From positions 1 through 34,180 of the forward strand of contig CAYTMT010000002.1 of the NCBI GenBank assembly GCA_964439095.1: a stretch of 34,180 nt of DNA. Direction: 5' to 3'. Shown here piece after piece: positions 3,775-32,700 of the stretch (the first letter of the stretch is position 1; each line of letters starts with the position of its first letter). A program made the translations under genes and the position numbers. The notes below the pieces were generated by a model, which saw only the letters and a list, made by a program, of their open reading frames with translations, made no database searches and had not been told where the DNA came from. The DNA comes from an uncultured Gammaproteobacteria bacterium. Lineage in GTDB: Bacteria > Patescibacteriota > Patescibacteriia > Magasanikbacterales > GWA2-37-8.

Positions 3775-5061
3775 TTACGGTTTTGGATTAACTTGCTCCT
3801 TAAGCCATTCTACCACTTTTCGATTACGAATGGTATTTTCGATAGTAGCCAACACCTCGGGACGTTCCAAGTTTTCATTTACAGTTTGATCGTTTTTGTA
3901 TACTGCTTTAATTTGCTCAATTTCAGCATCCAAATCTTTTTTACTCACAGTGATTTTGTGTTCGGTGGCCAGGTGGTGTGAGACAAGGGCAGCTTTGGCG
4001 CGTTTTTCGGCTTGTTCCGAGAAATCGGCGACAATTTCTTCTTCTGTTTTTTTAACATCTTTGAGGTATTGCTCCATTTCGATGCCGCGACGTTCTAGGT
4101 CGTGTTTAAGTTCGGCAAACATTTTGCGTTTTTCAGTGGCAATAAGCACATCAGGGATAACGCCAAATTTTGTTTTTTCAATAATTTGTTCCAGAATAGC
4201 TGCTTCTAAACGTTGATCTTCCTTGCTTTCTGCTTCATTGGCTAGGTTTTTTGTGAGCAGCTCACGTAGTTTTTCCATATTCTCTAAACGGAGACTTTGG
4301 GCGAAATCATCGTTGAGTTCGGGGTGCTCCAGAGAAAAAACATCCTTAACTTTTATTTTGAAATCAACATTTTTGTTGGCTAAATGTTTTTGGTAATGTT
4401 CCTTGGGAAATTTAAGGGTGAATTCTTTTGTGTCATCTTTTTTGAGTCCAACTAATTGATCGGCAAGGCCAGGAATGTAGTGTGGTTCATTAAGATAAAC
4501 CTGGTGGTTGAGTGTTTGGCCACCATCAACAGGAACATTATCAATAAACATATTAAGATCTACTACCACCTTGTCAGATTCAGTTGCGCCGCCATCCTTA
4601 GCAATTTCTTTGGTCTGCATCTTTTGCAGGTCGGTGAGCATGGCGTCAACATCTTCTTTTTTAATTTCTTTTTTTTCTCGAGCAACAGAAATTGTTTTTA
4701 TATCAGGCAGCGTCACTTCTGGCAAAAGAGCTACAGTAGCGCTAAAAACCAAATCATTGTGGGGGGCAACTTTTTCCAGGTTTATTTCTGGAGATCCAAC
4801 AGTTTTGAGTTTTTCGGCTTGTAAGGTAGTTACAAAGTTTCTTTGAACAATGCCTGGGAGTGCTTCCTCCAATATTCTGCCCTCACCCACTTCTTTTCGT
4901 ACAATTTCGTAGGGGGCTTTTCCAGGGCGGAATCCCTTAATAGCTGCTCGTTCTGAAATGGTGACCGCGGCTTTTTCTAAATCTTTTTGATACTCTGCTG
5001 GAGGGATGGTGATGGTGATTTTGATCTGGGATTTCTCTAGTTTTTGGGTAGTGTGTTGCAT
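3775..5061 (-). CDS. tig: Trigger factor
   Basis: 428 aa. N-terminal ribosome-binding signature GFRPGKAP, overall trigger factor architecture, K/E-rich C-terminal arm. Confidence 0.93.
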   Translation of the reverse strand: MQHTTQKLEKSQIKITITIPPAEYQKDLEKAAVTISERAAIKGFRPGKAPYEIVRKEVGEGRILEEALPGIVQRNFVTTLQAEKLKTVGSPEINLEKVAPHNDLVFSATVALLPEVTLPDIKTISVAREKKEIKKEDVDAMLTDLQKMQTKEIAKDGGATESDKVVVDLNMFIDNVPVDGGQTLNHQVYLNEPHYIPGLADQLVGLKKDDTKEFTLKFPKEHYQKHLANKNVDFKIKVKDVFSLEHPELNDDFAQSLRLENMEKLRELLTKNLANEAESKEDQRLEAAILEQIIEKTKFGVIPDVLIATEKRKMFAELKHDLERRGIEMEQYLKDVKKTEEEIVADFSEQAEKRAKAALVSHHLATEHKITVSKKDLDAEIEQIKAVYKNDQTVNENLERPEVLATIENTIRNRKVVEWLKEQVNPKP

Positions 5062-17009: not shown

Positions 17010-17354
17010 ATGGTTAAAATTTTCAGCAATCTCCTGGCCTTGTCCATGCTGTTCTTGGTACAAGTTTTTGAAGGCTGCGTCTTAAGCGTGTTGTGGGGAT
17101 GGTTCCTGGTGCCGGTGGGGGTGCAGAGCGTTGGCGTGGTCCGCGCCGTCGGTATTGTGTTGATGGTGCGTTTTATTGCTACGCAGAGGTTGGTTTCTTC
17201 TCAGGAAGAAAAGAAGAAAATCAGCGAGATGATGGAGAACCGCTACGAGAGGCTGGACGAAATCCATGCGATGACGGTGGGTATGGTCGCACAGGCGGTC
17301 CACAAGTCTGTGCTCGCTCTTTTCTTTGGCTGGATCATTCACCTGTTCATGTGA
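17010..17354 (+). CDS. Hypothetical small membrane protein (114 aa, about 3 TM)
   Basis: Chosen over the overlapping frames (17093-17467 plus, 17082-17447 minus) for four reasons: an upstream promoter, an SD, hydrophobic helices, and a terminator 20 nt after the stop. Locally GC-rich. Confidence 0.55.
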   Translation: MVKIFSNLLALSMLFLVQVFEGCVLSVLWGWFLVPVGVQSVGVVRAVGIVLMVRFIATQRLVSSQEEKKKISEMMENRYERLDEIHAMTVGMVAQAVHKSVLALFFGWIIHLFM

Positions 17355-17374
17355 CAGGCGGAGTATCCCCAACA

Positions 17375-17414
17375 AGGCACCTTGCGATTCGTCGTTCGGT
17401 GCCTCTTCTTTTTT
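17375..17414 (+). terminator. Intrinsic terminator
   Basis: aggcacc 17375-17381 pairs with ggtgcct 17398-17404, followed by cttctttttt. Confidence 0.7.
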
Positions 17415-17496
17415 CAAAATACCTTTGTGTACTATGGATAAAAGCATTTTTTAGGAGTATCTTATAGGTAGGTATAATTCCTAATTTGTAGAATTT

Positions 17497-17835
17497 ATGT
17501 ATATTCTAGTGTCTTGGCTTTTGAACGCGGTAGCTGTTATGGTGGCCGCCTATTTAATTCCCTGGGTTCGGGTGGATAATTTTTGGGTGGCATTGGTGGT
17601 GGCTTTGGTTTTAGGAGTGGTAAATATAACACTCAAGCCAATTTTAGTTGTTCTTACGTTACCAATCAACATTCTTACCCTAGGATTATTTACCTTTGTA
17701 ATTAATGCTTTACTTATCATGCTTACCGCTGGTATTGTGCAGGGCTTTGATGTGGGTGGGTTTGGTAGTGCTTTGTTATTTAGTGTTGTTTTAGGGGTAA
17801 TTAATGGTATTTTAGGTGGCTGGAGTAAACGTTAG
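17497..17835 (+). CDS. Phage_holin_4_2 (DUF360/YvlD-like) family 4-TM membrane protein
   Basis: 112 aa. LLNAVAVMVAAYLIPWVRVDNFWVALVVALVLGVVNITLKPILVVLTLPINILTLGLFTFVINALLIMLTAGIV matches the family pattern closely. TATAAT at 17472-17477. Confidence 0.8.
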   Translation: MYILVSWLLNAVAVMVAAYLIPWVRVDNFWVALVVALVLGVVNITLKPILVVLTLPINILTLGLFTFVINALLIMLTAGIVQGFDVGGFGSALLFSVVLGVINGILGGWSKR

Positions 17836-17862
17836 GGTTTGTTTTTACTAGGGCAGCAGGTT

Positions 17863-17898
17863 ACAAAGATGCAACTAAGTTGCGTCTTTGTTGTTTTC
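17863..17898 (+). terminator. Intrinsic terminator
   Basis: 13-bp stem acaaagatgcaac/gttgcgtctttgt (one G-U pair), loop taa, then a T-rich tail. Confidence 0.75.
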
Positions 17899-17901
17899 TC
17901 A

Positions 17902-17930
17902 TTGACAAAATATTCAAATAGTGTTATAAA
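17902..17930 (+). promoter_or_regulatory. Promoter for the 17977 gene
   Basis: TTGACA 17902-17907, 17-nt spacer, TATAAA 17925-17930. Canonical SD AGGAGG at 17966-17971, 5 nt before the ATG. Confidence 0.65.
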
Positions 17931-17976
17931 AAATTTAGACTAACACGTTCTTTCCACCATCCAAGAGGAGGCTAAA

Positions 17977-18624
17977 ATGCCTGGGATTTTTTCCGCTATC
18001 GCCGGTCTGCTGTTTCTTGCTGGTTTTGTGCCGTACATTCGTGCTATTTGGCACGGTGAAACAAAACCAAATAAAGCATCATGGCTTATTTGGACGTTTC
18101 TGGATGCGGTTACTTTGGCTGGTATGTATGCCAAAGGGACCGAGAACGCGCAAATCGTCTGCGCTTTTGTCGGATCGGTGGTGGTTTTGGTGCTAGCGCT
18201 AAAGCATGGGAAGTCCGGCTGGAGTATGCTGGACAAGGCGTCTTTGATTGCCGCTATCACGGGTGTTGTGCTTTGGGCGGCATTTAGCGATCCTGACATC
18301 GGAATTGTGGCGAGCTTGGTAGTAGTAACTGTAGGCTCATTCCCCACCTTCGTTTCCGCCTGGAATGATCCGGGTGCTGAAAACAAGGCAGGGTGGACAC
18401 TGTTCTTTCTGTCCTGTGTATTTGGCGTTATGGCCATAACGGAATGGACATTGGCATCTGCTGCCCAACCCATCGCTTTTTTGTTTACTAACCTGACAAT
18501 GGTGTCTCTCATCTATTGTCGTCCTGGTTTCAACAAAGCCACTCCAACCAGTTTTGTTGGTAGAAAAAAGAGGGCACGTACCGCAAAAAGAGGAAAAGGC
18601 GTAAGCGTAAGTAGAAGTAAGTAG
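17977..18624 (+). CDS. Polytopic membrane protein with internal duplication (PQ-loop/SWEET-like, tentative) and basic tail
   Basis: 215 aa, about 6-7 TM. The repeated motif is VPYIRAIWHGETKPNKASW (residues 18-36) and FPTFVSAWNDPGAENKAGW (residues 122-140). The C-terminal tail is GRKKRARTAKRGKG. Promoter, SD and terminator support the plus strand over the antisense ORF 17940-18512. Confidence 0.65.
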   Translation: MPGIFSAIAGLLFLAGFVPYIRAIWHGETKPNKASWLIWTFLDAVTLAGMYAKGTENAQIVCAFVGSVVVLVLALKHGKSGWSMLDKASLIAAITGVVLWAAFSDPDIGIVASLVVVTVGSFPTFVSAWNDPGAENKAGWTLFFLSCVFGVMAITEWTLASAAQPIAFLFTNLTMVSLIYCRPGFNKATPTSFVGRKKRARTAKRGKGVSVSRSK

Positions 18625-18632
18625 AAAAAGTG

Positions 18633-18671
18633 TGCCGTTAGGGGTTTGCCCATAACGGCATTTGTTTTTTT
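18633..18671 (+). terminator. Intrinsic terminator
   Basis: tgccgtta 18633-18640 pairs with taacggca 18653-18660, followed by tttgtttttt. Confidence 0.75.
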
Positions 18672-18739
18672 GTTCCACAAGGAACTTTCTAGAACAACCT
18701 GTGGACAAAACTGTTAGTAAGTTGTGGGTAAAAGTTATG

Positions 18740-18763
18740 TTTGTATACACTAGTGTATACAAA
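18740..18763. repeat. Perfect 24-bp palindrome
   Basis: tttgtatacactagtgtatacaaa is its own reverse complement (checked base by base). It lies 17 nt beyond the stop of the LAGLIDADG-like gene. Confidence 0.95.
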
Positions 18764-18779
18764 TTTTAGAATTCAAGTA

Positions 18780-19211
18780 TCAGGCTGTTCCACGCGGAAC
18801 TGTAGATATTATGAGTTTTATTTTTTTATCCATGCTTTTTAAGTTAAGCACTTCTTTTTTCCATTTTTTAAATAAGTCCTTTCTTTTTCCATAGAGCCTG
18901 CCATTAAGAGTGGGAAAAAGATTCTTCTTTATTGTTTCTTTACTGCGTATAAGCAAAAGAACATAATTGCGATTGCTGTGGGTGTATCGGTATATTTTTT
19001 CTGTTAATCCTAGTTTTGTTTTTATTAGTTCGATTAGAGGTGCATCGGAGATGTGTGTTTTTATTTGGAAAACAGGTATTTTTGTCTTGTTTTGTTTTAT
19101 CCAAAGAAAAGATCCGCTGGTGGCAATAACTCCAGCGACAAAATCAAGGGAAGGTAGTTTTATTTTTTTATCCATATTTGGGGCATTATTATATGTTTCT
19201 CTGTGAAACAT
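18780..19211 (-). CDS. Free-standing single-motif LAGLIDADG-like homing-endonuclease homologue with a degenerate catalytic motif
   Basis: 143 aa (131 aa if it starts at the ATG at 19175). The motif LDFVAGVIATSGSF (19107-19148) aligns with the LAGLIDADG core G-[FL]-[IF]-[DE]-G-[DE]-G-S-F, but Ala and Ser replace the acidic residues. The downstream beta-rich region and basic C-terminus resemble the I-CreI-type layout. Very AT-rich, with 18/60 G+C counted at 18841-18900. Confidence 0.6.
   Translation of the reverse strand: MFHRETYNNAPNMDKKIKLPSLDFVAGVIATSGSFLWIKQNKTKIPVFQIKTHISDAPLIELIKTKLGLTEKIYRYTHSNRNYVLLLIRSKETIKKNLFPTLNGRLYGKRKDLFKKWKKEVLNLKSMDKKIKLIISTVPRGTA
18814..18833. repeat. 20-bp direct repeat, copy 1 (agttttatttttttatccat)
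   Basis: Identical to 19156-19175. On the coding strand both copies encode MDKKIKL, near the C-terminus and at the N-terminus of the LAGLIDADG-like ORF respectively. Confidence 0.9.
19156..19175. repeat. 20-bp direct repeat, copy 2
   Basis: Identical to 18814-18833, with a 342-bp spacing. Confidence 0.9.
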
Positions 19212-19301
19212 TATAGACTGTAAAAAAACAGACTGTCAAGCCTGTTTTTTTGTGGTAAATAAAAGCACATAGTTACCCACAGTAATTTTTGTTAAATATC
19301 C

Positions 19302-19330
19302 TTGGTGGTGATCGTAGGTTATGGTATACT
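19302..19330 (+). promoter_or_regulatory. Extended -10 promoter at the head of the surface-gene block
   Basis: TTGGTG 19302-19307, 17-nt spacer containing TG at 19322-19323, TATACT 19325-19330. Confidence 0.5.
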
Positions 19331-19363
19331 GTACTTGGATTGAGTAATAATTTTTTTGTTTGT

Positions 19364-21685
19364 ATGTTTAATAACAAACTCGTTCGGCTATTTGATATGG
19401 CGACGTATATTATTTTGTTCATTATCGCAATCACCATTCCATTGTTTGTTGATAAGCACTTGGTAAATGCGTACGTTGTTCCTAAACAATATCTGTTTGC
19501 AGGGTTAATATTAGTGGCGTTGCTTACGGTTGCGGTCAAAACAGTGTTGGCAAAACGAGTTGAGCATGTTCGTTCGGTAATAGACACGCCGATTTTTGTT
19601 GTGTTGGGACTTTCATTATTATCGAGTTTGTTGGCAATAAATACATCAGATAGTTTTTTAGGTAGAAACGATTCTTTTGGGCTTAATTTTATTTTTATTG
19701 CAGTATCGGCTCTGTATTATTTTTTGTTGGTGAATTATGTGCGCACGGTGGGGCGTTGGCAGGCAATGTTGAATGTGCTGGTTGCAGTCGGAGGGGTAAC
19801 AGCAACTTTGTTTGTACTCAAATCCTTGTTTCATTTAGACTTACTTGCCTGGATAGCCCCGGGAATTTGGAATACGGTCGAAAAAATCAATAGCCCGTTT
19901 GGTTTGTGGTTAGTGATCGTGTTTGTGCTTTCCGCAGGACAGCTTATTCGTAAGGATGTTGCTCCAGGAAAAATGCTCCTATCTTTTTTTGTCATGCTTG
20001 TGTCTCTGGTTTCGCTTGTTCAATTGAGTTTCGTTATTTTGTGGTGGCTGTTATTTGCTGGAATTTTACTTCTCCTCCTTTTGGGCGTAATGTTTATTCA
20101 TGAGTCGCGACTAGGCTGGTTGTCGGTGTTGTTTTCGGTGCTTATTCTTACAACAGTATTTATCTTTTTCGGCACACCTAAAACTTTACAGTCAGCAGTT
20201 CCAGTGGAGGTCTCTTTGGGAATTAAACCTTCTTGGAGTGTGGCTGGAAAGGTTTTGTTTTCTGGTATTAAGCCATTTTTTATTGGTAATGGATTGTCTT
20301 CATTTGGTGTTTCGTTTTCTCAATTTCGTCCAGTGGGTTTTAATGCCGACCAGCTCGCCTGGAATCTTCGTTTTAGTCAGCCGCAGAACACCTTTATTGA
20401 ACTCCTGGCTAGTGGTGGGGTAACACTCGCGCTCGCTTTTGTTTTTGTGGTATTACTTCTTCTTGGTCATGCATTCCAAATTTTGTTTAAGCTGCGTTCA
20501 GAAAATGTAATGCAAGGATTGGTTACGCGTTTGGCGGGTATTCCACCACTAGCTATTGAAATTTTTTTGGTGGTAGTAGCGTGGGTGGTAGCAACGATTG
20601 GTATGGCATTTGTGTTCTACGGACCAACGTTATGGATTATGTGGTGGTTACTTCTTGGGCTTACTGTAAGTGGGCTGGCTTTTTTGGATAACGGACTCAC
20701 TTCGGTGCGTGAGTGGGTAGTGGAGGAATCTCCGCAATACAGCTTGTCGTTTTCTTTTTTGTTAATTATTGTGATGGCAGCAGTTGTGCTGAGTGGAATT
20801 TTTGGAGCACGGTTGTATTTGGCAGAAATGGATTACGCTAAGGCGCTTCAGAGTAACGCGCAAGATGCGGAAAGGTTTTTGTTGAGCGCGTTATCTAAGC
20901 GAAGTAATTTTGATTTGTATCATGCGGCGCTCGCTCAGGCCTATCTGGTGGACGCAGTACAGGCCAGTCAAGCAGCGAAGCCTGATGTGCAAGCAATAAA
21001 CACGTTGATGGGAAATGCGGTAAACGAAGCGCGGACCGCAATGGATTTATCGCCACGGTCGGTGATGATTGCAGAGAATTTAGCTACTATGTACGAGAAC
21101 ACAGCAGCGCTTATTCCTGGAGCGCGTGATTGGGCGATAAAAACATTGGAGGAGGCACGAGTGCTTGAATCAACAAATCCAGTATTGCGTTGGCGTTTAG
21201 GTAATAATTATGCGGGGGCTGGAAAATGGGAAGATGCTATCAAAAACTATCAAGCTGCAATTGATCTTAAACAGGATTATGTGGCGGCCTATGTAAGTTT
21301 GGCTGTGGCATATCAGGCTACAAACGATTTAGATAAAGCAGTAGAAACATATCGTATTATTGCTCCGGCCGGGATAAATAATTCTGATTATCTTTTTCAG
21401 TTTGGAAAATTATTGTTTAATCGTAATAAAGGCACTGATCGTGCTGATGCTGAAAAGTTGTGGTTGGAGGCAGTGCGTATTACTCCTAATTTTTCCAACG
21501 CGTTGTATAGCCTTGGTTTGCTCAATGAAACAAAAGGAAATAACACCGAAGCTCTTCGGTATTACTACAAGGTGCGCGATTTAAATCCGGACAATAAAGA
21601 TATTATTACTAAAATTAAAGCGTTGGTGGGAGGAGACAGCGCTCCAACTCCAGCTGTTGCAAAACCAGGAGAAAAAAAACGCTAG
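19364..21685 (+). CDS. O-antigen ligase/polymerase-like (Wzy_C-type) polytopic membrane protein with C-terminal TPR repeats
   Basis: About 12 TM helices followed by a periplasmic-type loop (GNGLSSFGVSFSQFRP). The C-terminal third has TPR repeats (GKWEDAIKNYQAAIDLKQDYVAAYVSLAVAY..., ALYSLGLLNETKGNNTEALRYYYKVRDLNPDN). The ATG at 19364 is preferred because the ORF-track start at 19289 precedes the promoter. Confidence 0.8.
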   Translation: MFNNKLVRLFDMATYIILFIIAITIPLFVDKHLVNAYVVPKQYLFAGLILVALLTVAVKTVLAKRVEHVRSVIDTPIFVVLGLSLLSSLLAINTSDSFLGRNDSFGLNFIFIAVSALYYFLLVNYVRTVGRWQAMLNVLVAVGGVTATLFVLKSLFHLDLLAWIAPGIWNTVEKINSPFGLWLVIVFVLSAGQLIRKDVAPGKMLLSFFVMLVSLVSLVQLSFVILWWLLFAGILLLLLLGVMFIHESRLGWLSVLFSVLILTTVFIFFGTPKTLQSAVPVEVSLGIKPSWSVAGKVLFSGIKPFFIGNGLSSFGVSFSQFRPVGFNADQLAWNLRFSQPQNTFIELLASGGVTLALAFVFVVLLLLGHAFQILFKLRSENVMQGLVTRLAGIPPLAIEIFLVVVAWVVATIGMAFVFYGPTLWIMWWLLLGLTVSGLAFLDNGLTSVREWVVEESPQYSLSFSFLLIIVMAAVVLSGIFGARLYLAEMDYAKALQSNAQDAERFLLSALSKRSNFDLYHAALAQAYLVDAVQASQAAKPDVQAINTLMGNAVNEARTAMDLSPRSVMIAENLATMYENTAALIPGARDWAIKTLEEARVLESTNPVLRWRLGNNYAGAGKWEDAIKNYQAAIDLKQDYVAAYVSLAVAYQATNDLDKAVETYRIIAPAGINNSDYLFQFGKLLFNRNKGTDRADAEKLWLEAVRITPNFSNALYSLGLLNETKGNNTEALRYYYKVRDLNPDNKDIITKIKALVGGDSAPTPAVAKPGEKKR

Positions 21686-24024: not shown

Positions 24025-26724
24025 ATGTCTTTTTTTTCAAAACGAGTGGGTGTGGTGGTGGGGGTGTTAAGCGCGGTACTTATTTTTCCGATATCGGTTT
24101 TTGCGGCCGCCTCTTTTGAATTGAGTCCAAGTGGTGGGTCGTTGGTGGCGGGGTGTTCTCAAACCATCAAGGTTATTATGAAAACGGATAGTGTGGTAAA
24201 TGGAGCGCAAGTGTATCTGAATTATAGCGGTTTAGGAAATGCAGATTTATCGATAGAAAAAGGTACTGCTTTTTCTTCGTACGGCGTTTCACCTGAAGTG
24301 TTGCCGAGTAATATGAAAATGCGCTATGGCTATGGTGCGGATGTGATCGGCCAAAATCTCGAATTTGCGAATATTGTTTTTTCTCCGCAGCAGGTTGGTT
24401 CGAATGTGTTGTTAACCATTAATACAACAAACATTAATAATGGGACAAAAATAAGCAAAATTGCCCGCGCTTTGGATGGTCAGAATATTTTAACAAACAC
24501 GATTGATGGGTCCTACACAGTGGTGAGTGGGTATTGCGATTATAATGATCCTGTTTTTGTTTCTTCTACTCCAGCAAAAAACGCTGTCAATTTTCCGGTA
24601 GATAAGGATATTATTTTGGATGTAACTGATACTGGTGGTTCGGGTATCGACGCTAATTCATTTTTGGTAGAGGTAACTCAAGGGGGTAGCACAGTTCCTG
24701 TGCAAGTTTCCTACACCAAGATAGGGTTAAATGATAATCATTATTTGTTTACCGTCCATCCTGTTTCTAATTTAATCCCCCAAGTAAAAGTGACAGTAAA
24801 TGCGAGTGTGAGGGATAGGGCAAATAATTCCGGAAATGAAAATATTACTTTTAACGACCTTACCTGCCAACAACTTGGTTGTGTTGATTCAGGGACCATT
24901 ACTCCTACTTCAACAAGTTCATCAACTTCTTCTGGTGGTGGTACGGGGATTACCCCACAATGTAGTGATCATGAAGATAATGATGGCGACGGACTGATTG
25001 ACTACCCGGCAGATCCAGGCTGCAAGAGTCCGGAGTGGAACAATGAATATGTGGCTGGTGAAGCGCAGAATCCTAACCCTACCACTGGTGGTGGCACCCA
25101 AACCTCTGCTTTGTTGACCGTGGACAATGTGCATTTTTATTTAGCACAAGGATCTATTGAAGCTCATTTAGGGTCTGGTTCAACATTGGAACACCTGCCG
25201 CAGTCATCTTTAAAAATTGCAGTTGATACGAATATTGGTGAAGGGGTAACTGCCGCGAAAGTTATTTTGGGTGAAATGCGACGGGATATGTTTTTTGATA
25301 ATGCCCTTAAAAAATACGCAGTAGAATTATTTACCCCAGAGGGCTCTAGTGTGATTGATGGCACAGTAACCGTAGTTCATGGGAGTATAACTGAGTCAGT
25401 GCCGTTTCATGTTGTGCTATTACCGTTAGGAAAAATTTTTACTAAGACAGTTGTGGGGGGTGAAAAAAATTTAGCTGGAGCGCATGTTTTTCTAGACCAG
25501 CTCACGGGGGCAAATAATTTTGTACCAGTCAAAGAAGCGTTTACCAACGAAAACGGTGAGTATTCTTTTGTGGTCCCAAACGGAGGGTATCGTTTGCGCG
25601 TTCAGACAAGTGGTATCTCAACCGAAGAAACAGCGGGTTTTCGAATTACGAACAATATTGTGAATCGTCCTGTGGGTATTCTTATTCCTCCCAATCCAGA
25701 CGCCTCACTTTCAGAACAAATTCAATATGTAGCTGAGGTTGTGGCACGTCAGAGCGGAAAGACTTTGGGGCGTATCAATGATCCGCAGGTAGAAAAAATA
25801 GTAGGAAACCAGATAGCTCCTTTAGCCGCGGCTACAACCGCTTTGGCAGTTGTTCCTGCGTTGTCGCTTTTGAATCTTCTTTCATATTTGCGCTATCTGT
25901 TCTTACAACCACTCCTTCTCCTGCGTCGTCGGCAACGAAAAGAATGGGGTGTGGTCTATAATACGCTGAACAAGTTACCGGTTGATCTGGCTGTGGTGCG
26001 TTTGATTGAGGTAAGTGGCGGCAAGGTGGTGCAGTCGCGTGTTACCGATCGCGAAGGCCGATTCGCTTTCTTTGTTTCCGTTCCTGGTTTGTATCGAGTT
26101 GAAGTTAATAAAGATCGTTTTATTTTCCCGAGTAAAATTCTTCAGGGAATTTCTGAGGATACCTCATTTTTGGACCTGTATCATGGTGAGCCAATTCATG
26201 TTGATGTAAAAGATACGGTAGTAGCGGTAAATATTCCGCTTGATCCGATGGGTGGGATAGAAAAAACACCAAGCCGTATTATTTGGGATCGTAGTTTTCG
26301 TCAATTTCAAGTAGCTTTATCGCAATTTAGTATTGCTGCCGGAATAATTTCACTTCTTATTACCCCTACTTGGTTTGTAGGAGGGTTGCTCGTATTGCAA
26401 GTTGTTCTGTATGCGCTATTTCGACGGTTAAGTCAACCGAATAAACCAAAAAGCTGGGGCATTGTAAGTGATTTACGTCAAAAAACACCGGTAGAACGAG
26501 TCATTGCTCGGTTGTTCTCGAAGCAATTTGATAAACTTGTGGCCACTGAGGTTACTGACGGCAAAGGACGGTATTCGTTTTTGGCTGGTCCCAGTGATTA
26601 TTATGTTACTTTTGAAAAAAATGGTTATAAAAAAGAAATAGTAGAGGGTGTTCGGGTGAAAGAACACGGTGAAACGGTAAAAAAAGACGTGTCAATACAA
26701 AAAATTGAGGAAGATAAAAAATAG
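24025..26724 (+). CDS. Large envelope protein: cohesin-like N-domain, Ig-like domains, DNDGDG..DPGC motif, CarboxypepD_reg-like domains interleaved with TM segments
   Basis: 899 aa. Signal peptide, then a cohesin-like segment (FELSPSGGSLVAGCSQTIKVIMKTDSVVNGAQVYLNYSG) and SbsA/Big-like repeats. These are followed by an S/T linker, CSDHEDNDGDGLIDYPADPGC, three NGEYSF/EGRFAF/KGRYSF beta-sandwich modules, and hydrophobic segments near 25813-25920 and 26330-26420. Confidence 0.85.
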   Translation: MSFFSKRVGVVVGVLSAVLIFPISVFAAASFELSPSGGSLVAGCSQTIKVIMKTDSVVNGAQVYLNYSGLGNADLSIEKGTAFSSYGVSPEVLPSNMKMRYGYGADVIGQNLEFANIVFSPQQVGSNVLLTINTTNINNGTKISKIARALDGQNILTNTIDGSYTVVSGYCDYNDPVFVSSTPAKNAVNFPVDKDIILDVTDTGGSGIDANSFLVEVTQGGSTVPVQVSYTKIGLNDNHYLFTVHPVSNLIPQVKVTVNASVRDRANNSGNENITFNDLTCQQLGCVDSGTITPTSTSSSTSSGGGTGITPQCSDHEDNDGDGLIDYPADPGCKSPEWNNEYVAGEAQNPNPTTGGGTQTSALLTVDNVHFYLAQGSIEAHLGSGSTLEHLPQSSLKIAVDTNIGEGVTAAKVILGEMRRDMFFDNALKKYAVELFTPEGSSVIDGTVTVVHGSITESVPFHVVLLPLGKIFTKTVVGGEKNLAGAHVFLDQLTGANNFVPVKEAFTNENGEYSFVVPNGGYRLRVQTSGISTEETAGFRITNNIVNRPVGILIPPNPDASLSEQIQYVAEVVARQSGKTLGRINDPQVEKIVGNQIAPLAAATTALAVVPALSLLNLLSYLRYLFLQPLLLLRRRQRKEWGVVYNTLNKLPVDLAVVRLIEVSGGKVVQSRVTDREGRFAFFVSVPGLYRVEVNKDRFIFPSKILQGISEDTSFLDLYHGEPIHVDVKDTVVAVNIPLDPMGGIEKTPSRIIWDRSFRQFQVALSQFSIAAGIISLLITPTWFVGGLLVLQVVLYALFRRLSQPNKPKSWGIVSDLRQKTPVERVIARLFSKQFDKLVATEVTDGKGRYSFLAGPSDYYVTFEKNGYKKEIVEGVRVKEHGETVKKDVSIQKIEEDKK

Positions 26725-26758
26725 TCCACAAAAAACAAGATAAACTTCGCCCTATATG

Positions 26759-26767
26759 TGGTATAAT
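26759..26767 (+). promoter_or_regulatory. Extended -10 element (TGgTATAAT) 7 nt upstream of the giant-ORF ATG
   Basis: TG 26759-26760, TATAAT 26762-26767, ATG 26775-26777. No SD fits in the 7-nt gap. Confidence 0.5.
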
Positions 26768-26774
26768 AAGGTAT

Positions 26775-29700
26775 ATGGAAAAAATTGATCGGCTGTTGAA
26801 AAAGAATCGAAAGAGAACTCGGGCCATTTTAATGTTGGGGCCATTATTTTTCTTTGTGTTTTTGTTTTTTGGGCTCGTAGCCCGTTCTTCTTTTGCTGTA
26901 GCCGCAGCGGTTCCAGACGTTATAACGTATCAAGGTAAATTGTTGCTGAATAATGCTTCGGTAACGACTACTGTCCCAATACAGTTTGTTCTCTATGACA
27001 CTCCCAGCGCTGGAACGATTTTGTATACGGCCAGCGGAACTATAGGGGCTCCAGCAGCAACAGCAGTAACTCCAAATAAAGGCTTATTTAGTGTTGAGTT
27101 AGGTGGAAGTGGAACAAATCCATTAGACGCGGGCGTAGTATTTAAAAATAATAGCTCTGTTTATCTGGAAGTAACGGTAAACGGTGAAACCCTTTCTCCT
27201 CGCAAACGTTTAACGGCTAGTCCGTATGCTTTTAACGCAAAATATTTAGACGGTATTGCCGCCACAAGCACCCCCACTAGCTCAGCATATATTCCAGTAG
27301 CGGATTCTTCTGGTAATTTTAGTTTTAATCGGGTAACTTCAACCGGTTTTGTAGTGTCTGGCACTTCAACCTTGGCTACAACTACTATTTCTAGTTCGAC
27401 TATCGGGGTAGCGAATGTGGGGAATCTCTTTTTGACAAATGCCACCGGCACGAACTTATTTGTTTCCAGTCTTTCTGCGAGTAGTAGTGTTTTTTCCAGT
27501 GTTACGTCGAGCAATTTTTCCGTTACTGGTAATTTAGACATAACCACAGCGGTAATTCTTGGTCTCTCTACCGCGGATCTTTCGGATAGTAGCAGTCTGG
27601 CATATTTGGTTGGTGCAAATACCTTTACTGGTCCAAATACTTTCTCTGGAAATACTACTTTGGCCACTACTACCATTAGTTCTTCTACTATTTTTACTGC
27701 CAATATTAACTCGCTTAATGTTTTGTCTTCCTTGTCGTTGCCTGTTGCCTCAATTCTCGAGGCCTATCTTGCTCCTAATTCTGTTTCTTCCACCACGCTA
27801 AAATCAACAGGAGTAGTGGCTGGCACCTATGGTTCAGCCACACAAACAGCTCAATTTGTGGTGGATGAAGATGGTCGCATCCTTTCAGCCACCAATGTAA
27901 CTATCATTTCTTCATCTACAAGCCCTTCATCATCTTTTGATGGTACCATCGCTGCGGGTGATTTGTCGGGCACCTATCCAAATCCAACCGTGAGTAAAAT
28001 AAATGGCAATACATTGGGTAACACGGCCATTACTGGTGGTAACATTTTAGTGGCCAGCAGCACAGCAGGTTGGACATCGGTAGCGCTGGGGGGTGATGCG
28101 ACGATTGATTCTTCTGGTTTACTTTCCATTACCAACAATACGGTTACGGTGGCCAAGTTAGTAGCAGGTGATTTTTCTAGTAAAATAAATACTGGTACTT
28201 ATTCTATTAATGTTACCGGAACCGCTTCGAATGTAACTGGTGTGGTAGCATTGGCTAATGGTGGAACCAATGCAAACGCTAGTTTCTTCACTACCCCGGG
28301 CGAGTTTATTATCTATGATGGAAGTCGGTTAGTGGGGGCTGGTTTTTCTTCATCTTCGTTTGCTTTGACTAGTCACACACACTCCGCGGCAGATATTACG
28401 GCCGGTATTTTTTCGGGGGTAAGTTATACGTTCGCTAATGATTTGGCAGTATCTGGTTTTTCAACATTCCGTACCACCACCATCAGCTCTTCTTCTATTA
28501 CCACCGCCAATATTAACTCGCTTAATGTTTTTTCTGCCCTCACTCTTCCAGCTGCCTCAATCCTCGAAGCCTATCTCGCTCCTAATTCTGTTTCTTCCAC
28601 CGCGCTTAAATCAACGGGCGTAGCCAGTGGAATCTATGGTTCGGCCACGGAAATTGCTCAGTTTGTGGTTGATGAAGATGGGCGTATTCTTTCGGCCTCT
28701 AATGTTTCTATCGCCGCTTCTGTTACTACCACAGTGACTACTACTCTTGATGGCACCGCCGGCGGTGATTTGTCGGGCACCTATCCGGACCCAACCGTGA
28801 GTAAAATTAATGGTAACACGCTCGGCAATACGGCTACCACCAGTGGACATATTTTGGTAGCGAGTAGTACGGCAGGTTGGACATCGGTAGCGCTCGGTGG
28901 TGACGCAACGATTGACTATAATGGTTTGTTGTCAATTACAAATAATACTATCACCGCGGCCAAGCTAGCAGCTGGTGATTTTTCGAGTAAAATTAATGCG
29001 GGCACATACACAATTAGTGTCACCGGTACAGCCGATAACGTTACCGGCGTGGTAGCTATTGCCAACGGTGGTACAAATGCAAATGCCAGTCATTTTACTA
29101 CTCCGGGTGAGTTTGTAATTTATGATGGCAGCCGGTTGGTTGGATCAGGATTCACATCGTCTTCCTTTTCTTCGGGTGGTAGCCATACCCATCCTGCTTC
29201 GGATATTACCGCCGGTACTTTTGGCGGGTCGAGTTATGTATTTGCTAATGATTTGGCGGTGTTGGGTTCGGCGACTTTTGCTACTGCTACGGTACAGAAT
29301 GCGTTGCAAACCGACTCTGGGTTATTTTTATCGCAAGTTGGTTTGGCTGTTCCTAATTTGTTAACTAACCCTTCTTTTGAAAGTGGTATCACCAACTGGG
29401 GTGATCGACTTGGGTTTTTGGGTGGCAGTACATATTCAGTAACCAGCACTGCTTATAGCGGGTCTTCTGCCTTGCAGTTAGAGGCCAGGCTAGATTTGAG
29501 TGGGTTTTTTGGTGGCCCACCGCTTAAAATCGGCTACTTTTATCACGATACTTCTAATGTAACGCAAAGCGCTAGTAGTACTATTAGTTTTTATGCCCGC
29601 GGTGCAGTTGGTGGCGAACACGCGCGTATTTTGATTGAGCGTGATCCGGGTACTGGGCAAGCTGGTTGTGGTGGTAGTTTAGCTTCGGTTTATAATTTTA

Positions 29701-32700
29701 CCACTGGTGGTTGGGATTGCGTGGATTTACAAACAAGTGTGGCGGCTTTTGCGGTTGCTTCGCCGAATACTCAATCTTTTAGTTTAACTACAAGTTATCA
29801 ACGTTTTAATGCTACCTTTAATCCGGGTGCCTATGGTACGGTGCAAATCTCTATATTAGCCGGTGGTGCCTCGGCCTATAATGATGAAGTAGTTTTGTAT
29901 GATGCATTTAAATTGGAAGCAGGTAGCACTCCGTCATCATTTGATGGTGGTTCATCACCCATGTTCGCTTTAAAAAATAATAACGCAGCGGCGGACTATA
30001 ATTCACAAACATCACTACTATCTGTTCAGGATTCGGCGGCTACTAATTTTTTCCAGATTATGGGTGATGGCCGGGCCAATGTTGGTAGTGCCAGCGTTAC
30101 TGGTTCCATTGCTGTTTTTGGTCGTGGTTCAGAGCAAACAGTGCTGAATGGCTATGGGCAATTATTATCCCGTGGCGCATTTGGCTCTGATGATACGCTG
30201 ACTAGTGCTACTGGATCGCAGTTTATCTGGTATCCAAAGCGGGGTGCATTTAGAGCTGGGTATACTGATACGCTCACCTGGGGAGATAATACAATTGGTA
30301 ATTATTCATTCGCCGCAGGTAACGAAGTTTCCGCGCCCGGTGTTGGTGCGATTGCGTTTGGTAAAAACGTAACAGTAACCGGAGCAAATTCGGTGGCTTT
30401 TAGTGCTAGTTCCACACTTTCCACAGTCGCCAATGATAATATTTTTTCATTGCTTGGGTATAAGGTGGGTATTGGCACGGTTAATCCGGCCACCGCTTTA
30501 GTGGTAGTGGGTACTACCACTCTCGAGAATTTATCAGTAACCGGTTCTACTACGCTTGATAATATTAGCCCAACAGGAATAAATCCGGTGCTAACAGTAA
30601 CTGGTGGTTTAAAGTTGGGGTATGTAGGTTCTGCTGCTCTTGGTACGTTGCGGTGGAGCGGATCGCGATTGGAGTGGTACGATGGTTCTTCGTGGGTAGC
30701 AACATCTTTGCCGGCAGCGACGGATAATGGCACTACACTCCGATATGATGGTGCCGAATGGGTGACGAGTACTTTTTTACGGAATCTTTATAGTAGTTCT
30801 CAAATTAATATTAATAACGCAACCGGCAGTGCGGTATTAGCAGTGCGTGGAAGTGATCTTGAGTTACCTATTGCGGAGTTTTACAATGGACGTAGTGGTT
30901 TTGAAGATGTTCCTGCTATCCTTTCTATTCAACAAGGTGGTGGTGGAAGTGGTTGGGTAGGGATAGGAACAAGTACACTAGATTCAGTATGGGAACCAAA
31001 GTTGTTGGTAAAAAGTGACAGTGGTGCTCTAATGAAGCTCGATGGTGGAGTTGATGGTCTCAGTAACGAAATTTCTCGTACTCTTCTTTTTACTGGTCTT
31101 GGTCGTCTATCATTAGGAACCACTACTGCGGCAACAGTGAATGCCGCGAAGGTGACAATCGTTGGTGAAGGATCCACTGGAGCCACAAATCCATTGCAAG
31201 TGTTGCGTAATGATGGTACATCAAATTTTGTTATCCGTGATGATGGAATGGTTTTTGTTAAAAAAGGAAGTTTGATTGTAAATTCTGATTCCACTGCTTT
31301 GTCTCGTCCGGCGTTGTATGTGACCAGAAAATCAGGCGATATTAGTCAGGTCATTGCGCAGTTTACTGATAACGCCAGTTCAACTTTGGCCAACACCATT
31401 CTTAGTATCAATGCTGGCGGTATCCAAATTAACACTACAACTCTTGATTATTATAGTGTCGCAGGGATTCAAGGTGTTGGCGGAATTTCTATGGTAGATA
31501 GTGGCAGCTCGCCAGGTGTTGCCACCGGACCGCGTTTTTTGTGGAGTGGCAGTAAATTTCGAGTGGGCACATTTAATAGTGAGTTTGGTTTGGGGGCTGA
31601 CACTATCGCCCTTGGCACTGATGCTTATGCCGACCAAATTGAGGCCACTGCTCTCGGCTTGCATGCGTTGGCTACTGGGCGGAGGTCTTTAGTGTTGGGA
31701 AACGGAACTGCCTCTGGTGATTTTTCAACAGCAATTGGTAATGCGGAGTTCGTGTCAGTTGGTCATGATAAAGCGAATAGTTTTAATGTTCCCGAGGCCA
31801 GTGGTTATGGTGCGATTGCCATCGGGAGTGGAAGCATAAGTCAAAACTTTGGTGCCAAGACTCTGGCTGCAGGGACATCGTCACTTGCCATTTTTGGTAT
31901 AGCTTCTGGTACACAGTCGGTGGCGTTGTGGGGTGATGCTTCCGGCGACAATTCAATGGCTTTTGGGCGTTATACTTCTATCACTGCTTCTGGTGCTGTG
32001 GTATTAGGGCGGGGTGTTGATAGTAATAACCCGTTATTAAACACTACCAACAATTCTTTGGCTGTTGGTTTTAATTCTGATGTTCCCACCTTTTTTGTAG
32101 GTGGTGGTTCGGGAGTTGGCACATATGGCCAAGTAGGTATTGGCACCACCAACACTGCGTACACACTCGATGTGCGCGGTACTTTTGGCGCCACCGGTAC
32201 TTCCACTTTAGCCACCACCACCATTACCGCAGTCGCGAGCAGTTTAATACCTACCGAAGATAATGTATTTAGCTTGGGTACGTCGCTCATTCGCTGGAAA
32301 GATTTGTATGTAAGCTCCAGTAGTTTGCATATTGGCGCAGATGGTGCCGAGGGCAGCATTCATTATAATACTGATGACCATTATTTATCATTCAACGCGG
32401 GTAGTGGTATTGCCAGTCAACTGGTGATTGTAAGTAGCACTGGTTTTGTGGGTATTGGTACGACTACGCCTAATGCTGTGCTTACCGTGGGTGGTGGTGC
32501 GTATTTGGATGGCGGCTTGGAAGTAACTGGAAGTGCCACATCAACTGGTGATCAATATGTAGGTGGAAATTTATCAGTGATAGGATTAAGTCATTTTGCA
32601 AACCTTACTTGGGATAGTGCAACGGGCACGAGTGTGTTTCTTTCAAATGCAACGGCCATTGATGCTATGGTGGGAAATTTAACAGTGACGAGCACTCTCG

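What the first reader, a model, noticed from the sequence alone, without database searches (positions are those of the whole stretch)
18740..19211. Degenerate single-motif LAGLIDADG-like gene next to a perfect 24-bp palindrome and bracketed by 20-bp direct repeats
The 143-aa ORF has one LAGLIDADG-type motif, which implies a homodimer. The two acidic positions read Ala and Ser (GVIATSGSF instead of G-x-I-D-G-D-G-S-F), so metal-dependent cleavage is probably lost. Seventeen nt past its stop lies a perfect 24-bp palindrome (tttgtatacactagtgtatacaaa). Homodimeric LAGLIDADG enzymes such as I-CreI bind ~22-bp pseudo-palindromic sites, so this could be the protein's binding site: a relic homing site, or an operator for a domesticated DNA-binding derivative. 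The gene body is also bracketed by an exact 20-bp direct repeat (18814-18833 and 19156-19175) encoding MDKKIKL at both ends. That suggests a past tandem duplication or insertion event. The gene is free-standing, not inside an intron or intein, and far more AT-rich than its neighbours.
Basis: partly seen in the sequence, partly recalled or inferred. Interest (0 to 1): 0.65.

Follow-up and report, generated by a model that had tools for sequence, protein, structure and literature searches.

The report
Inactive LAGLIDADG gene inside parS cluster
A small gene descended from a DNA-cutting "homing endonuclease" has lost its cutting residue yet is kept by selection, wedged between chromosome-segregation (parS) sites in a group of tiny uncultured bacteria; the perfect palindrome beside it belongs to a separate, widespread regulatory motif.

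Summary
The ORF is a single-domain LAGLIDADG_1 protein (Pfam above cut-off; AF2 pLDDT 91; TM 0.74 to I-OnuI). The catalytic acid is Ser. The 24-bp palindrome and the 20-nt repeat are both exact.

The gene belongs to a family of at least 180 small Patescibacteria proteins, mostly Magasanikbacteria. At the conserved locus studied it sits in one place: divergent from a TPR membrane-protein gene and bracketed by parS-type palindromes. Downstream come the 24-bp palindrome, DnaA boxes, tRNAs and rmuC.

The gene co-diverges with its neighbour (r=0.80) and its carriers form one clade. It has lost the catalytic Glu in 40 of 65 relatives, yet dN/dS is about 0.11. It is therefore a long-resident, selected, non-cleaving derivative, not a recent invader.

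The palindrome is not its site:
- It occurs at 151 sites in 120 loci, and only 9 are near this gene.
- It sits at the same syntenic spot in genomes that lack the gene.
- At 37 sites it lies next to an HTH_17 gene, overlapping its promoter where read; 70 sites have a DnaA box within 70 nt.

The best candidate target of the protein is a gene-specific 17-bp "parS+1" palindrome at its own promoter.

The 20-nt repeat is a strain-specific rearrangement.

The parts
18780..19175 (-). CDS of a single-domain LAGLIDADG_1 protein (131 aa from ATG 19175; stop 18780-18782).
   Evidence: Pfam PF00961 E 4.6e-7, 31.1 bits against a cut-off of 23.1. AF2 pLDDT 90.7 with alpha-beta-beta-alpha-beta-beta-alpha topology. 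Foldseek best matches I-OnuI, I-SmaMI and I-AniI, TMq 0.74, rmsd about 2 A. 97 and 89 relatives from two profile searches.
19107..19136 (-). LAGLIDADG motif AGVIATSGSF. The catalytic-acid position is Ser20 (AGC, 19116-19118).
   Evidence: In the alignment, 25 of 65 relatives have Glu at this position. The other 40, the window's own Ser included, have S, G, A, T, H, C, I, M or F.
19210..19239 (-). Sigma-70-type promoter TTGACA-18-TATAAT of the gene.
   Evidence: 12 of 12 consensus match. A TTGACA-type -35, usually with a -10-like hexamer, stands at the same relative place in most LAG+ loci read.
19194..19210 (-). 17-bp palindrome TGTTTCACAGAGAAACA ('parS+1': the parS arms with one extra central base), at about +1 of the promoter. 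Candidate operator.
   Evidence: In 1.11 Mb of fetched DNA this pattern (up to 1 mismatch) occurs in 10 LAG+ loci plus one unrelated viral contig. In 9 of them it lies at the gene's promoter; in L129 it is about 270 nt upstream. As RNA it folds to -5.9 kcal/mol, z -4.5.
18786..18801 (.). parS-like 16-mer TGTTCCACGCGGAACT, 2 mismatches to TGTTNCACGTGNAACA. It lies inside the ORF's C-terminal tail (VPRGT).
   Evidence: It is the only site with up to 2 mismatches in the 34-kb window. Relatives have perfect or near-perfect parS 3-10 nt after the stop codon.
18814..18833 (-). Copy 2 of the 20-nt direct repeat (ATGGATAAAAAAATAAAACT on the gene strand). It encodes MDKKIKL in the non-conserved tail.
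   Evidence: Exact repeat. 0 of 1000 simulations reach 20 nt, and relatives lack it. A near-identical strain lacks this tail.
19156..19175 (-). Copy 1 of the 20-nt direct repeat: the start codon plus codons 2-7.
   Evidence: A related strain carries a synonymous G>A at 19157.
18740..18763 (.). Perfect 24-bp palindrome TTTGTATACACTAGTGTATACAAA. It is an instance of a motif widespread in Patescibacteria genomes and is not specific to this gene.
   Evidence: It is present at the same syntenic site in LAG-minus genomes. It overlaps the promoter of an HTH_17 gene elsewhere.
18700..18731 (-). Two DnaA-box-like 9-mers: TTGTCCACA (18700-18708) and TTACCCACA (18723-18731).
   Evidence: Each has 1 mismatch to TTATCCACA. 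Relatives have three boxes starting within a few bases of the palindrome.
18671..18686 (.). Second, more degenerate parS-like palindrome TGTTCCACAAGGAACT.
   Evidence: 3 mismatches.

Best explanation
The ORF is a real, selectively maintained, single-domain LAGLIDADG-fold protein that can no longer cut DNA by the canonical mechanism, because the metal-binding Glu/Asp is Ser.

It belongs to a family of small (about 110-160 aa) free-standing proteins of Patescibacteria, chiefly Magasanikbacteria. The ancestor was most likely a homodimeric homing endonuclease that settled once inside the origin-proximal parS cluster of the chromosome, between a TPR membrane-protein gene and a module made of parS, the 24-bp palindrome, DnaA boxes and tRNAs. 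It has been inherited vertically since.

The most likely present activity is sequence-specific, non-cleaving binding of a palindromic DNA site as a homodimer. The best candidate site is the 17-bp 'parS+1' palindrome at +1 of its own promoter, which would give autorepression. The bracketing parS-type 16-mers are a second candidate.

The 24-bp palindrome is not part of this gene's system. It is an operator-like motif of a separate HTH_17 regulator and of DnaA-box clusters.

Shown: fold, loss of the acid, family, synteny, parS bracketing, co-divergence, purifying selection, and independence of the palindrome from the gene.

Inferred: homodimerisation, DNA binding, the identity of the bound site, and the origin as a homing endonuclease.
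For: Fold and family:
- Pfam LAGLIDADG_1 above the gathering cut-off.
- PDB sequence hits to an I-OnuI-like LAGLIDADG endonuclease (4z1x, 4efj = I-GzeII) and to I-AniI.
- AF2 pLDDT 90.7; Foldseek TMq 0.74.
- 71 representative clusters, plus 97 and 89 proteins from two profile searches.

Loss of catalysis with retention of the gene:
- The catalytic position is Glu in only 25 of 65 relatives, yet all are intact ORFs.
- Between relatives that both lack the acid, dN/dS is 0.12 (dS 0.92), 0.11 and 0.11.
- Between the window and a 94%-identical strain that keeps ATSGSF, dN/dS is 0.105.

Residence and vertical inheritance:
- The same synteny (TPR gene divergent; rmuC, holA and polA on the other side) appears in loci whose proteins are 42-60% identical.
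- Pairwise identity of the protein tracks that of the neighbouring TPR protein: r=0.80 over 78 pairs.
- Carriers form one clade of the TPR tree.
- Empty sites show no gene remnants.

parS association:
- In every carrier locus the only parS-like sites lie at the two ends of the gene. They are often perfect TGTTTCACGTGAAACA, 10-25 nt before the ATG and 3-10 nt after the stop.
- All four more distant members sampled also have parS-like sites at the gene. Two of them lie next to a UPF0102 gene, a different neighbourhood.
- Many called N- and C-termini are translations of parS: MFHVKH, MVSRET, VSRETT*.

Candidate operator: the 17-mer was found only in carrier loci, almost always at the gene's promoter, apart from one unrelated viral hit, in 1.11 Mb.

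Conserved DNA-facing residues: the invariant and near-invariant residues include residues of beta2 (V35, F36, Q37, K39), Y64 on beta3 and R77/R79 just after beta4, while the catalytic position is free to vary.
Against: - No binding or expression data exist. All runs that hold the sequence are DNA metagenomes.
- A 17-bp site with an odd centre is atypical for LAGLIDADG dimers, whose known targets are about 22 bp with a 4-bp centre.
- The window's own copy has lost the upstream 16-mer parS, and its downstream one is degenerate. A parS-linked role may therefore be eroding in this lineage.
- Loss of the catalytic acid is also the first step of ordinary homing-endonuclease decay.
- 25 of 65 relatives still carry Glu and could be active nucleases.
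- The clade and co-divergence evidence rests on 13-20 loci and a neighbour-joining tree with midpoint root.
- ParB was not shown to be encoded in these genomes.
Confidence: 0.55

Rival explanations
1. First reader's reading. The 24-bp palindrome is the protein's own binding site: a relic homing site, or the operator of a domesticated derivative.
For: - The palindrome lies 3' of the gene in all 13 main-clade loci analysed and in one of four more distant loci.
- A 22-24-bp palindrome is the right size and symmetry for a LAGLIDADG homodimer.
- One relative has a symmetric double change (TGTGTACACTAGTGTACACA), so the dyad is under selection.
- Binding in trans to all palindromes of the genome is not formally excluded.
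Against: - Of 151 sites in 120 loci, only 9 are near a family member. 37 are next to an HTH_17 gene and 70 have a DnaA box within 70 nt.
- Where read, the palindrome overlaps the -10/+1 of the HTH_17 gene's promoter.
- The palindrome sits at the same syntenic place in clades that lack the gene. One such genome also has the HTH_17 gene with its palindrome (L022 and L033 are the same MAG).
- The distance to the gene varies from 20 to 211 nt, while DnaA boxes follow the palindrome within a few bases.
- Two of four more distant members have no palindrome and a third only a degenerate remnant, yet they keep parS-like flanks.
- The gene's own promoter carries a different palindrome.
Confidence: 0.08
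2. The gene is a selfish homing endonuclease gene that homes into the parS cluster. The window's copy is a functionless relic in the degeneration phase of the homing cycle.
For: - Free-standing, AT-rich, with its own promoter.
- Tightly bracketed by a conserved palindromic sequence that would make an ideal homing target.
- Related genomes have clean empty sites.
- Glu is retained in 25 of 65 relatives.
- The region is a hot spot with other cargo, such as TrmB genes and other ORFs.
Against: - dN/dS is about 0.11 in acid-less copies, including the window's lineage.
- All copies found by DNA-level search are intact.
- Identity co-varies with the neighbouring gene, r=0.80, and carriers form one clade.
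- No relatives were found in viral contigs or PHROGs.
- A nuclease that cuts parS would also cut the carrier's own parS sites.
Confidence: 0.2
3. The palindrome is only a transcription terminator hairpin shared by the two convergent genes.
For: It lies between two convergent ORFs and can form a 10-11-bp stem with a 4-nt loop, at -8.7 and -10 kcal/mol.
Against: - The stem is AT-rich and there is no U tract on the gene's strand. It is not called by the terminator scan.
- The 215-aa gene has its own GC-rich hairpin at 18633-18660.
- Elsewhere the same motif sits at promoters or 5' ends and next to DnaA boxes.
Confidence: 0.05

Closest known systems
Homodimeric single-motif LAGLIDADG homing endonucleases (I-CreI, I-MsoI, I-CeuI; in CPR bacteria I-ShaI and I-KazI of rRNA insertions, PMC11270868)
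   Same: - One LAGLIDADG domain with the alpha-beta-beta-alpha-beta-beta-alpha fold.
- Expected homodimer recognising palindromic or pseudo-palindromic DNA.
- Found in the same bacterial radiation.
   Different: - Those are about 160-180 aa, intron- or insertion-encoded in rRNA genes, keep the catalytic Asp/Glu and cleave their insertion site.
- This one is 113-131 aa and free-standing in an intergenic parS cluster.
- It lacks the acid, is inherited vertically, and is under purifying selection without the nuclease residue.
I-OnuI, I-GzeII, I-SmaMI, I-LtrI and I-AniI (monomeric two-domain LAGLIDADG_1 enzymes)
   Same: - Best sequence matches (E 2e-6) and best structural matches (TMq 0.74, rmsd about 2 A).
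- Same Pfam family, PF00961.
   Different: - Those are two fused domains of about 250-300 aa, encoded in fungal mitochondrial introns, and catalytically active.
- Here there is a single domain. One family member (P0003, 231 aa) is a tandem two-domain fusion.
WhiA (domesticated LAGLIDADG transcription factor of Gram-positive bacteria, PMC3781837)
   Same: - A bacterial, vertically inherited LAGLIDADG scaffold without catalytic residues that serves as a DNA-binding regulator.
- Its Streptomyces regulon includes chromosome-segregation genes.
   Different: - WhiA has two LAGLIDADG domains plus a C-terminal HTH domain that contributes DNA binding (own knowledge).
- It is not embedded in a parS cluster.
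- No sequence relationship to WhiA was seen here.
LAGLIDADG maturases (bI3, and the dual-function I-AniI)
   Same: A LAGLIDADG fold retained after loss or reduction of nuclease activity, for a nucleic-acid-binding role. bI3 appears among the fold matches.
   Different: Maturases bind their host group I intron RNA. No intron or other structured RNA family is found here; Rfam reports only 3 tRNAs in the window.
Chromosomal parS centromere sites (TGTTNCACGTGNAACA) and DnaA-box clusters near oriC
   Same: - The 16-mers that bracket the gene match the universal parS consensus, perfectly in relatives.
- They lie about 17 kb from dnaA and next to DnaA-box arrays.
   Different: - A protein-coding gene inserted between parS copies has not, to my knowledge, been described.
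- The window's own copies are degenerate (2-3 mismatches, and a 17-mer).
- This is not oriC: GC skew does not switch here, and dnaA has its own boxes.

Membership tests
LAGLIDADG superfamily (Pfam LAGLIDADG_1) | Profile match above the curated cut-off | tested here: met
   PF00961 E 4.6e-7, 31.1 bits against 23.1. Relatives carry PF00961.
LAGLIDADG superfamily (Pfam LAGLIDADG_1) | alpha-beta-beta-alpha-beta-beta-alpha core fold with an N-terminal interface helix | tested here: met
   AF2 pLDDT 90.7; elements H10-20, E21-28, E31-41, H42-55, E61-66, E69-76, H79-90. Foldseek TMq 0.74 to I-OnuI. This is a prediction, not an experiment.
Active LAGLIDADG homing endonuclease | Acidic residue (Asp/Glu) at the C-terminal end of the LAGLIDADG helix that binds the catalytic metal | tested here: not met
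   AGVIATSGSF: the position is Ser20. 40 of the 65 aligned family members, the window's own copy included, also lack the acid.
Active LAGLIDADG homing endonuclease | Site-specific DNA cleavage | not testable with these tools
   Needs purified protein and substrate DNA.
Mobile homing endonuclease gene | Residence in an intron or intein, or a free-standing position next to a cleavable target, with sporadic distribution and a gene tree incongruent with the host | tested here: not met
   The gene is free-standing. Empty sites exist but fall in other clades. Identity co-varies with the neighbouring gene, r=0.80. There are no viral relatives. The sample is small.
Homodimeric (I-CreI-type) subclass | Single domain that dimerises on a palindromic target | tested here: inconclusive
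   A single domain is shown. Dimerisation and the target were not testable. Palindromic candidates are present at 19194-19210 and 18786-18801.
Chromosomal parS site | Match to TGTTNCACGTGNAACA in an origin-proximal position | tested here: inconclusive
   The window has 2 mismatches at 18786-18801, 3 at 18671-18686, and a 17-mer at 19194-19210. Relatives have 0-1 mismatch. dnaA is 17 kb away.
Chromosomal parS site | A ParB protein encoded by the genome that binds the site | not tested
   There is no ParB in the window or in the fetched loci (the query was recalled from memory, so this is only a lead). Whole genomes were not available.
Operator of the HTH_17 regulator (the 24-bp palindrome) | The motif overlaps the promoter of the regulator's own gene and recurs at other loci | tested here: met
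   Met in related genomes. 37 of 151 sites lie within 150 nt of the HTH_17 gene. In at least 16 loci the start codon follows the palindrome within about 40 nt, and where the upstream sequence was read the palindrome follows TTGACA-17-TAnTTT. PF12728 E 2.9e-7. The regulator gene is not in this 34-kb window. Binding is untested.
WhiA-type domesticated LAGLIDADG regulator | Two degenerate LAGLIDADG domains plus a C-terminal HTH | tested here: not met
   Single domain of 131 aa; no HTH hit in Pfam.

The most novel reading that the evidence does not exclude
The family is functionally tied to the bacterial centromere. Two versions are open. In the first, it is the first homing-endonuclease lineage that uses the near-universal parS palindrome cluster as its homing site. 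In the second, which fits the data better, it is a domesticated meganuclease scaffold that binds parS-type palindromes and modulates ParB loading, or the parS / DnaA-box hub, in Patescibacteria. ParB bound at the flanking parS sites would in turn gate its expression.
Probability: 0.22. Interest if true: 0.8.

Novelty: new variant of a known kind. Interest (0 to 1): 0.55.

Why it matters
LAGLIDADG proteins are known as selfish intron or intein nucleases, as RNA maturases, and, in WhiA, as a two-domain transcription factor.

A minimal single-domain version that has repeatedly lost its catalytic residue, yet is kept by selection for a long evolutionary time, would be a new route of domestication of a homing endonuclease. 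It always sits between copies of the chromosome's centromere sequence.

It would also be a lead into how chromosome segregation and origin-region organisation work in the uncultured, reduced-genome Patescibacteria. Nothing was found on this in the literature searched here.

The survey also exposes a conserved non-coding hub (parS copies, a 24-bp palindrome, three DnaA boxes, tRNAs) and a candidate HTH_17 regulator with a multi-site palindromic operator. Both can be tested directly in vitro.

For genome annotation, many called N- and C-termini of these proteins (MFHVKH, MVSRET, VSRETT*) are translated parS sites and not real protein sequence.

Tried and rejected
- oriC hypothesis for the parS / palindrome / DnaA-box module: rejected. 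GC skew is positive across the whole window with no switch at 18.7 kb. dnaA at 167-1576 has its own box clusters.
- LexA/SOS-box idea for the palindromes: no support in the literature searched. Dropped.
- Terminator reading of the palindrome: weak hairpin, no U tract, wrong contexts elsewhere.
- Metagenome scans with the window protein and with an invariant 30-mer: nothing found. Close relatives other than those in Logan runs X2-X4 could therefore not be examined.
- Viral collections: 15 single palindrome hits, no protein relatives, no PHROG match. The locus is not a phage feature.
- Search for gene remnants in empty sites: none, tblastn E > 0.1.
- tblastn with a ParB sequence recalled from memory: no hit in 1.1 Mb of fetched loci. 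This is uninformative about the genomes as a whole.
- P0056 (1460 aa, 12 matched stretches): an unrelated repeat protein (DUF4097), a spurious hit.
- An HTH-bearing ORF in L026 whose 'YWAEGNK' motif looked LAGLIDADG-like: not confirmed by Pfam.
- Literature on parS plus LAGLIDADG or homing endonucleases, and on the TGTATACA motif: nothing relevant.
Full report
**1. What is in the sequence**

The minus-strand ORF 18780-19211 (143 aa), the perfect 24-bp palindrome at 18740-18763 and the exact 20-nt direct repeat (18814-18833 and 19156-19175) are all present as described.
- The palindrome is unique in the window even at 3 mismatches, with none expected by chance.
- The repeat is longer than anything seen in 1000 Markov simulations of the region, where the maximum was 16 nt.
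- The gene has GC 0.33 against 0.436 for the window.
- A 12/12 consensus promoter (TTGACA-18-TATAAT, 19239-19210, minus strand) overlaps the first ATG, and homologues start at the second. The protein therefore most likely starts at 19175 (131 aa, MDKKIKLPSLDF...).
- Contigs of a wastewater metagenome reproduce 18300-19700 exactly.

**2. The protein**

- Pfam LAGLIDADG_1 matches above its cut-off (E 4.6e-7, 31.1 against 23.1 bits).
- The best solved relatives by sequence are an I-OnuI-like LAGLIDADG endonuclease (4z1x, 4efj = I-GzeII) and I-AniI.
- An AlphaFold2 model built on 65 homologues has pLDDT 90.7 and the canonical alpha-beta-beta-alpha-beta-beta-alpha order.
- Foldseek puts the model on I-OnuI, I-SmaMI, I-LtrI and I-AniI with TM 0.74 and rmsd about 2 A.
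- The motif reads AGVIATSGSF. The position of the metal-binding Asp/Glu is Ser20.

**3. The family**

An exhaustive phmmer search finds 71 representative clusters. Two profile searches find 97 and 89 proteins. Almost all are 110-160 aa, and where named they come from Magasanikbacteria, Sungbacteria and other Patescibacteria.

In an alignment of 65 relatives, only 25 keep Glu at the catalytic position. The other 40, the window's own Ser included, carry S, G, A, T, H, C, I, M or F. The invariant and near-invariant residues include residues of beta2 (V35, F36, Q37, K39), Y64 on beta3 and R77/R79 just after beta4, the face that contacts DNA in solved enzymes (the mapping to DNA contacts is by analogy).

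One member (P0003) is a tandem two-domain fusion.

**4. Where the gene sits**

In every locus recovered for relatives at 42-60% identity, the gene is divergent from a TPR membrane-protein gene of about 760 aa. On the other side lie rmuC, holA and polA, as in the window.

Read in the gene's direction, the architecture is conserved:
- a TTGACA-type promoter;
- a 17-bp palindrome TGTTTCnCnGAGAAACA at about +1;
- 3 nt later, a 16-bp parS (TGTTNCACGTGNAACA);
- about 10 nt, then the ATG;
- after the stop, 3-10 nt, then another parS, often the perfect TGTTTCACGTGAAACA;
- a variable 20-211 nt, then the 24-bp palindrome;
- three DnaA boxes that start within a few bases of the palindrome;
- tRNA genes and rmuC.

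In each 12-kb locus the only parS-like sites are those at the gene. This also explains many odd called termini of family members, which are translated parS: MFHVKH = ATGTTTCACGTGAAACAT, MVSRET, VSRETT*.

All four more distant members have parS-like sites at the gene, at one or both ends. Two of them lie in a different neighbourhood, next to a UPF0102 gene. One has DnaA boxes and tRNAs right after the stop. Two have no 24-bp palindrome and a third only a degenerate remnant.

The window's own copy is the eroded version. The upstream 16-mer is gone. The downstream one has 2 mismatches and has been absorbed into the ORF's tail (VPRGTA*). A third copy (18671-18686) has 3 mismatches.

**5. Resident or invader?**

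- Pairwise identity of the protein tracks that of the neighbouring TPR protein (r=0.80, 78 pairs).
- In a TPR tree, carriers form one clade. Genomes with the same intergenic module but no gene (L022, L124, L044, L109, L025, L031, L089) fall outside it.
- Those empty sites contain two to four parS copies, the palindrome and the DnaA boxes. They sometimes carry other cargo such as a TrmB gene, but no remnant of the gene.
- All copies found by DNA-level search are intact.
- dN/dS between pairs that both lack the acid is 0.12 (dS 0.92), 0.11 and 0.11.
- A riverine strain about 94% identical to the window has 8 synonymous and 3 conservative codon changes in the first 65 codons. It keeps ATSGSF. dN/dS is 0.105.
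- No relatives occur in viral contigs or PHROGs.

Together this points to one old acquisition, vertical descent, repeated loss of catalysis and continued selection. That is a domesticated, or at least functionally retained, non-cleaving protein. The sample is modest and the tree simple, so this is strong but not conclusive.

**6. The 24-bp palindrome**

These were mostly Magasanikbacteria and other Patescibacteria, and they held 151 sites. The census is as follows:
- 9 sites lie near a family member;
- 37 sites are within 150 nt of a gene for a conserved HTH_17 protein of about 100-140 aa (PF12728). Where the upstream sequence was read, the palindrome follows TTGACA-17-TAnTTT and is followed within a few bases by the start codon, the classic place of an autorepressor's operator;
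- 70 sites have a DnaA-box within 70 nt. My own estimate of the chance expectation is about 3%.

One genome without the LAGLIDADG gene at the syntenic locus has both the palindrome there and the HTH_17 gene with its palindrome elsewhere (L022 and L033). As RNA the palindrome is a weak AT hairpin (-8.7 and -10 kcal/mol) with no U tract on the gene's strand. It is rare in viral contigs.

The palindrome is thus an independent, ancestral element of the locus. Its symmetric variant in L001 shows selection on the dyad, but for another binder. The HTH_17 gene is not in this window.

**7. What the protein probably binds**

The one DNA element that is specific to carriers is the 17-bp 'parS+1' palindrome at the promoter. 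In 1.11 Mb of fetched sequence it occurs (up to 1 mismatch) in 10 carrier loci, at the promoter in 9 of them, and once in an unrelated viral contig. In the window it lies at 19194-19210 and overlaps the last base of the -10 box.

I therefore propose autorepression through this site, with the parS-type 16-mers as second candidates. This step is inference. An odd-centred 17-mer is unusual for LAGLIDADG dimers.

**8. The 20-nt repeat**

No relative has it. Their longest gene-bracketing direct repeats are parS plus flank, 10-15 nt.

A sediment-metagenome strain that is 99% identical over 18850-18974 diverges exactly at 18850 and reads ...KKEVLART*. That gives 113 aa, the normal length for the family. 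The window's last 21 residues, which contain repeat copy 2 and the absorbed parS, are therefore a recent strain-specific rearrangement. It may be the stub of a tandem duplication, for which the fused two-domain P0003 is a precedent. The mechanism is unresolved.

**9. Not the origin**

GC skew stays positive over the whole window. dnaA (167-1576) has its own DnaA boxes on both sides. The locus is therefore an origin-proximal parS / DnaA-box cluster about 17 kb from dnaA, not oriC.

**10. Comparison with the known**

CPR LAGLIDADG proteins described so far are active homodimers of about 180 aa, encoded in rRNA insertions (PMC11270868). WhiA is the known bacterial domesticated LAGLIDADG, but it has two domains plus an HTH (PMC3781837; the domain architecture is from my own knowledge). 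I found no report of a LAGLIDADG gene associated with parS.

I file this as a new variant of a known kind: a member of the LAGLIDADG fold family, not an active homing endonuclease.

Noticed in passing
L033:60-480, L098:2588-2940, L106:2749-3100, L122:4209-4600 and about 25 further loci: A conserved HTH_17 protein of about 100-140 aa (…EMIRVSVSEAARLFGVNSQTIRRAI…YKVNFESLVKWSQ…GIGQFVEKWKIKNPLYSPNPK). Where read, its promoter (TTGACA-17-TAnTTT) is overlapped by the 24-bp palindrome. It is probably an autoregulated repressor with a multi-site regulon in Magasanikbacteria.
   Followed up: partly
L010:4960, L018:7676, L042:3722, L043:6711, L087:5456, L111:7173, L116:4372, L126:470: The palindrome directly abuts an array of DnaA boxes (…TATACATTGTGGATAAgTnTGTGGAAAA…TGTGGATAA) at loci other than the parS cluster. 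In all, 70 of 151 sites have a DnaA-box within 70 nt. This suggests a link between the palindrome's binder and DnaA.
   Followed up: partly
L044:4850-6400 (reverse), L109, L124, L026, L022: Gene-less relatives carry two to four parS copies within a few hundred bases; L044 has three perfect TGTTTCACGTGAAACA within about 300 bp. Variable cargo lies between them, so the parS cluster behaves as an insertion hot spot.
   Followed up: partly
L025 (about 4750-4950), L089, L031; also L128:3355-4092: TrmB-family regulator genes occupy the same slot as the LAGLIDADG gene in some genomes and carry parS inside their coding sequence (…IVSRETK… = perfect parS). In L128 the TrmB gene follows the LAGLIDADG gene by 10 nt.
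   Followed up: no
P0042 N-terminus; P0003: P0042's called N-terminus contains three MVSRET repeats at 14-codon spacing, meaning three parS sites 42 bp apart upstream of the gene. P0003 (231 aa) is a tandem two-domain fusion of the family (two PF00961 stretches).
   Followed up: partly
window 18850 (strain variant in run X4); window 18981-19463 (run X2): Related strains exist in sediment and river metagenomes. One has a different 3' end of the gene from 18850 on (…KKEVLART*). Another differs at 12 sites in the first 195 nt of the CDS, mostly synonymous, and has several indels in the promoter-distal intergenic region at 19265-19300.
   Followed up: partly
window 17010-18624: Three small membrane-protein genes (114 aa; 112 aa Phage_holin_4_2; 215 aa with no Pfam hit) lie between the tRNA-Ala gene and the DnaA boxes. 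In relatives the tRNAs follow the DnaA boxes directly, so this is an extra insertion in this lineage. The 215-aa ORF ends with a 10-nt tandem GTAAGTAGAA x2 (18607-18626).
   Followed up: no
window 26718-34178: A single open frame of at least 2487 aa runs off the end of the window. This is why ORF listing shows almost no long ORFs there. It follows an 899-aa CarboxypepD_reg/SdrD_B surface protein.
   Followed up: no
L026:2623-3279: An ORF of 219 aa with an N-terminal HTH and a 'SLYWAEGNKKDFSF' motif lies next to a tRNA in the same hot spot. It looked LAGLIDADG-like by eye, but Pfam gives only weak HTH hits.
   Followed up: yes
Genome-contig hits L011-L013, L020, L024 and others: Many MAGs labelled 'uncultured Gammaproteobacteria' (TPA assemblies) carry the Magasanikbacteria-type palindrome, DnaA-box and HTH_17 arrangement, with rmuC/holA/polA synteny. 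The labels are probably wrong.
   Followed up: no
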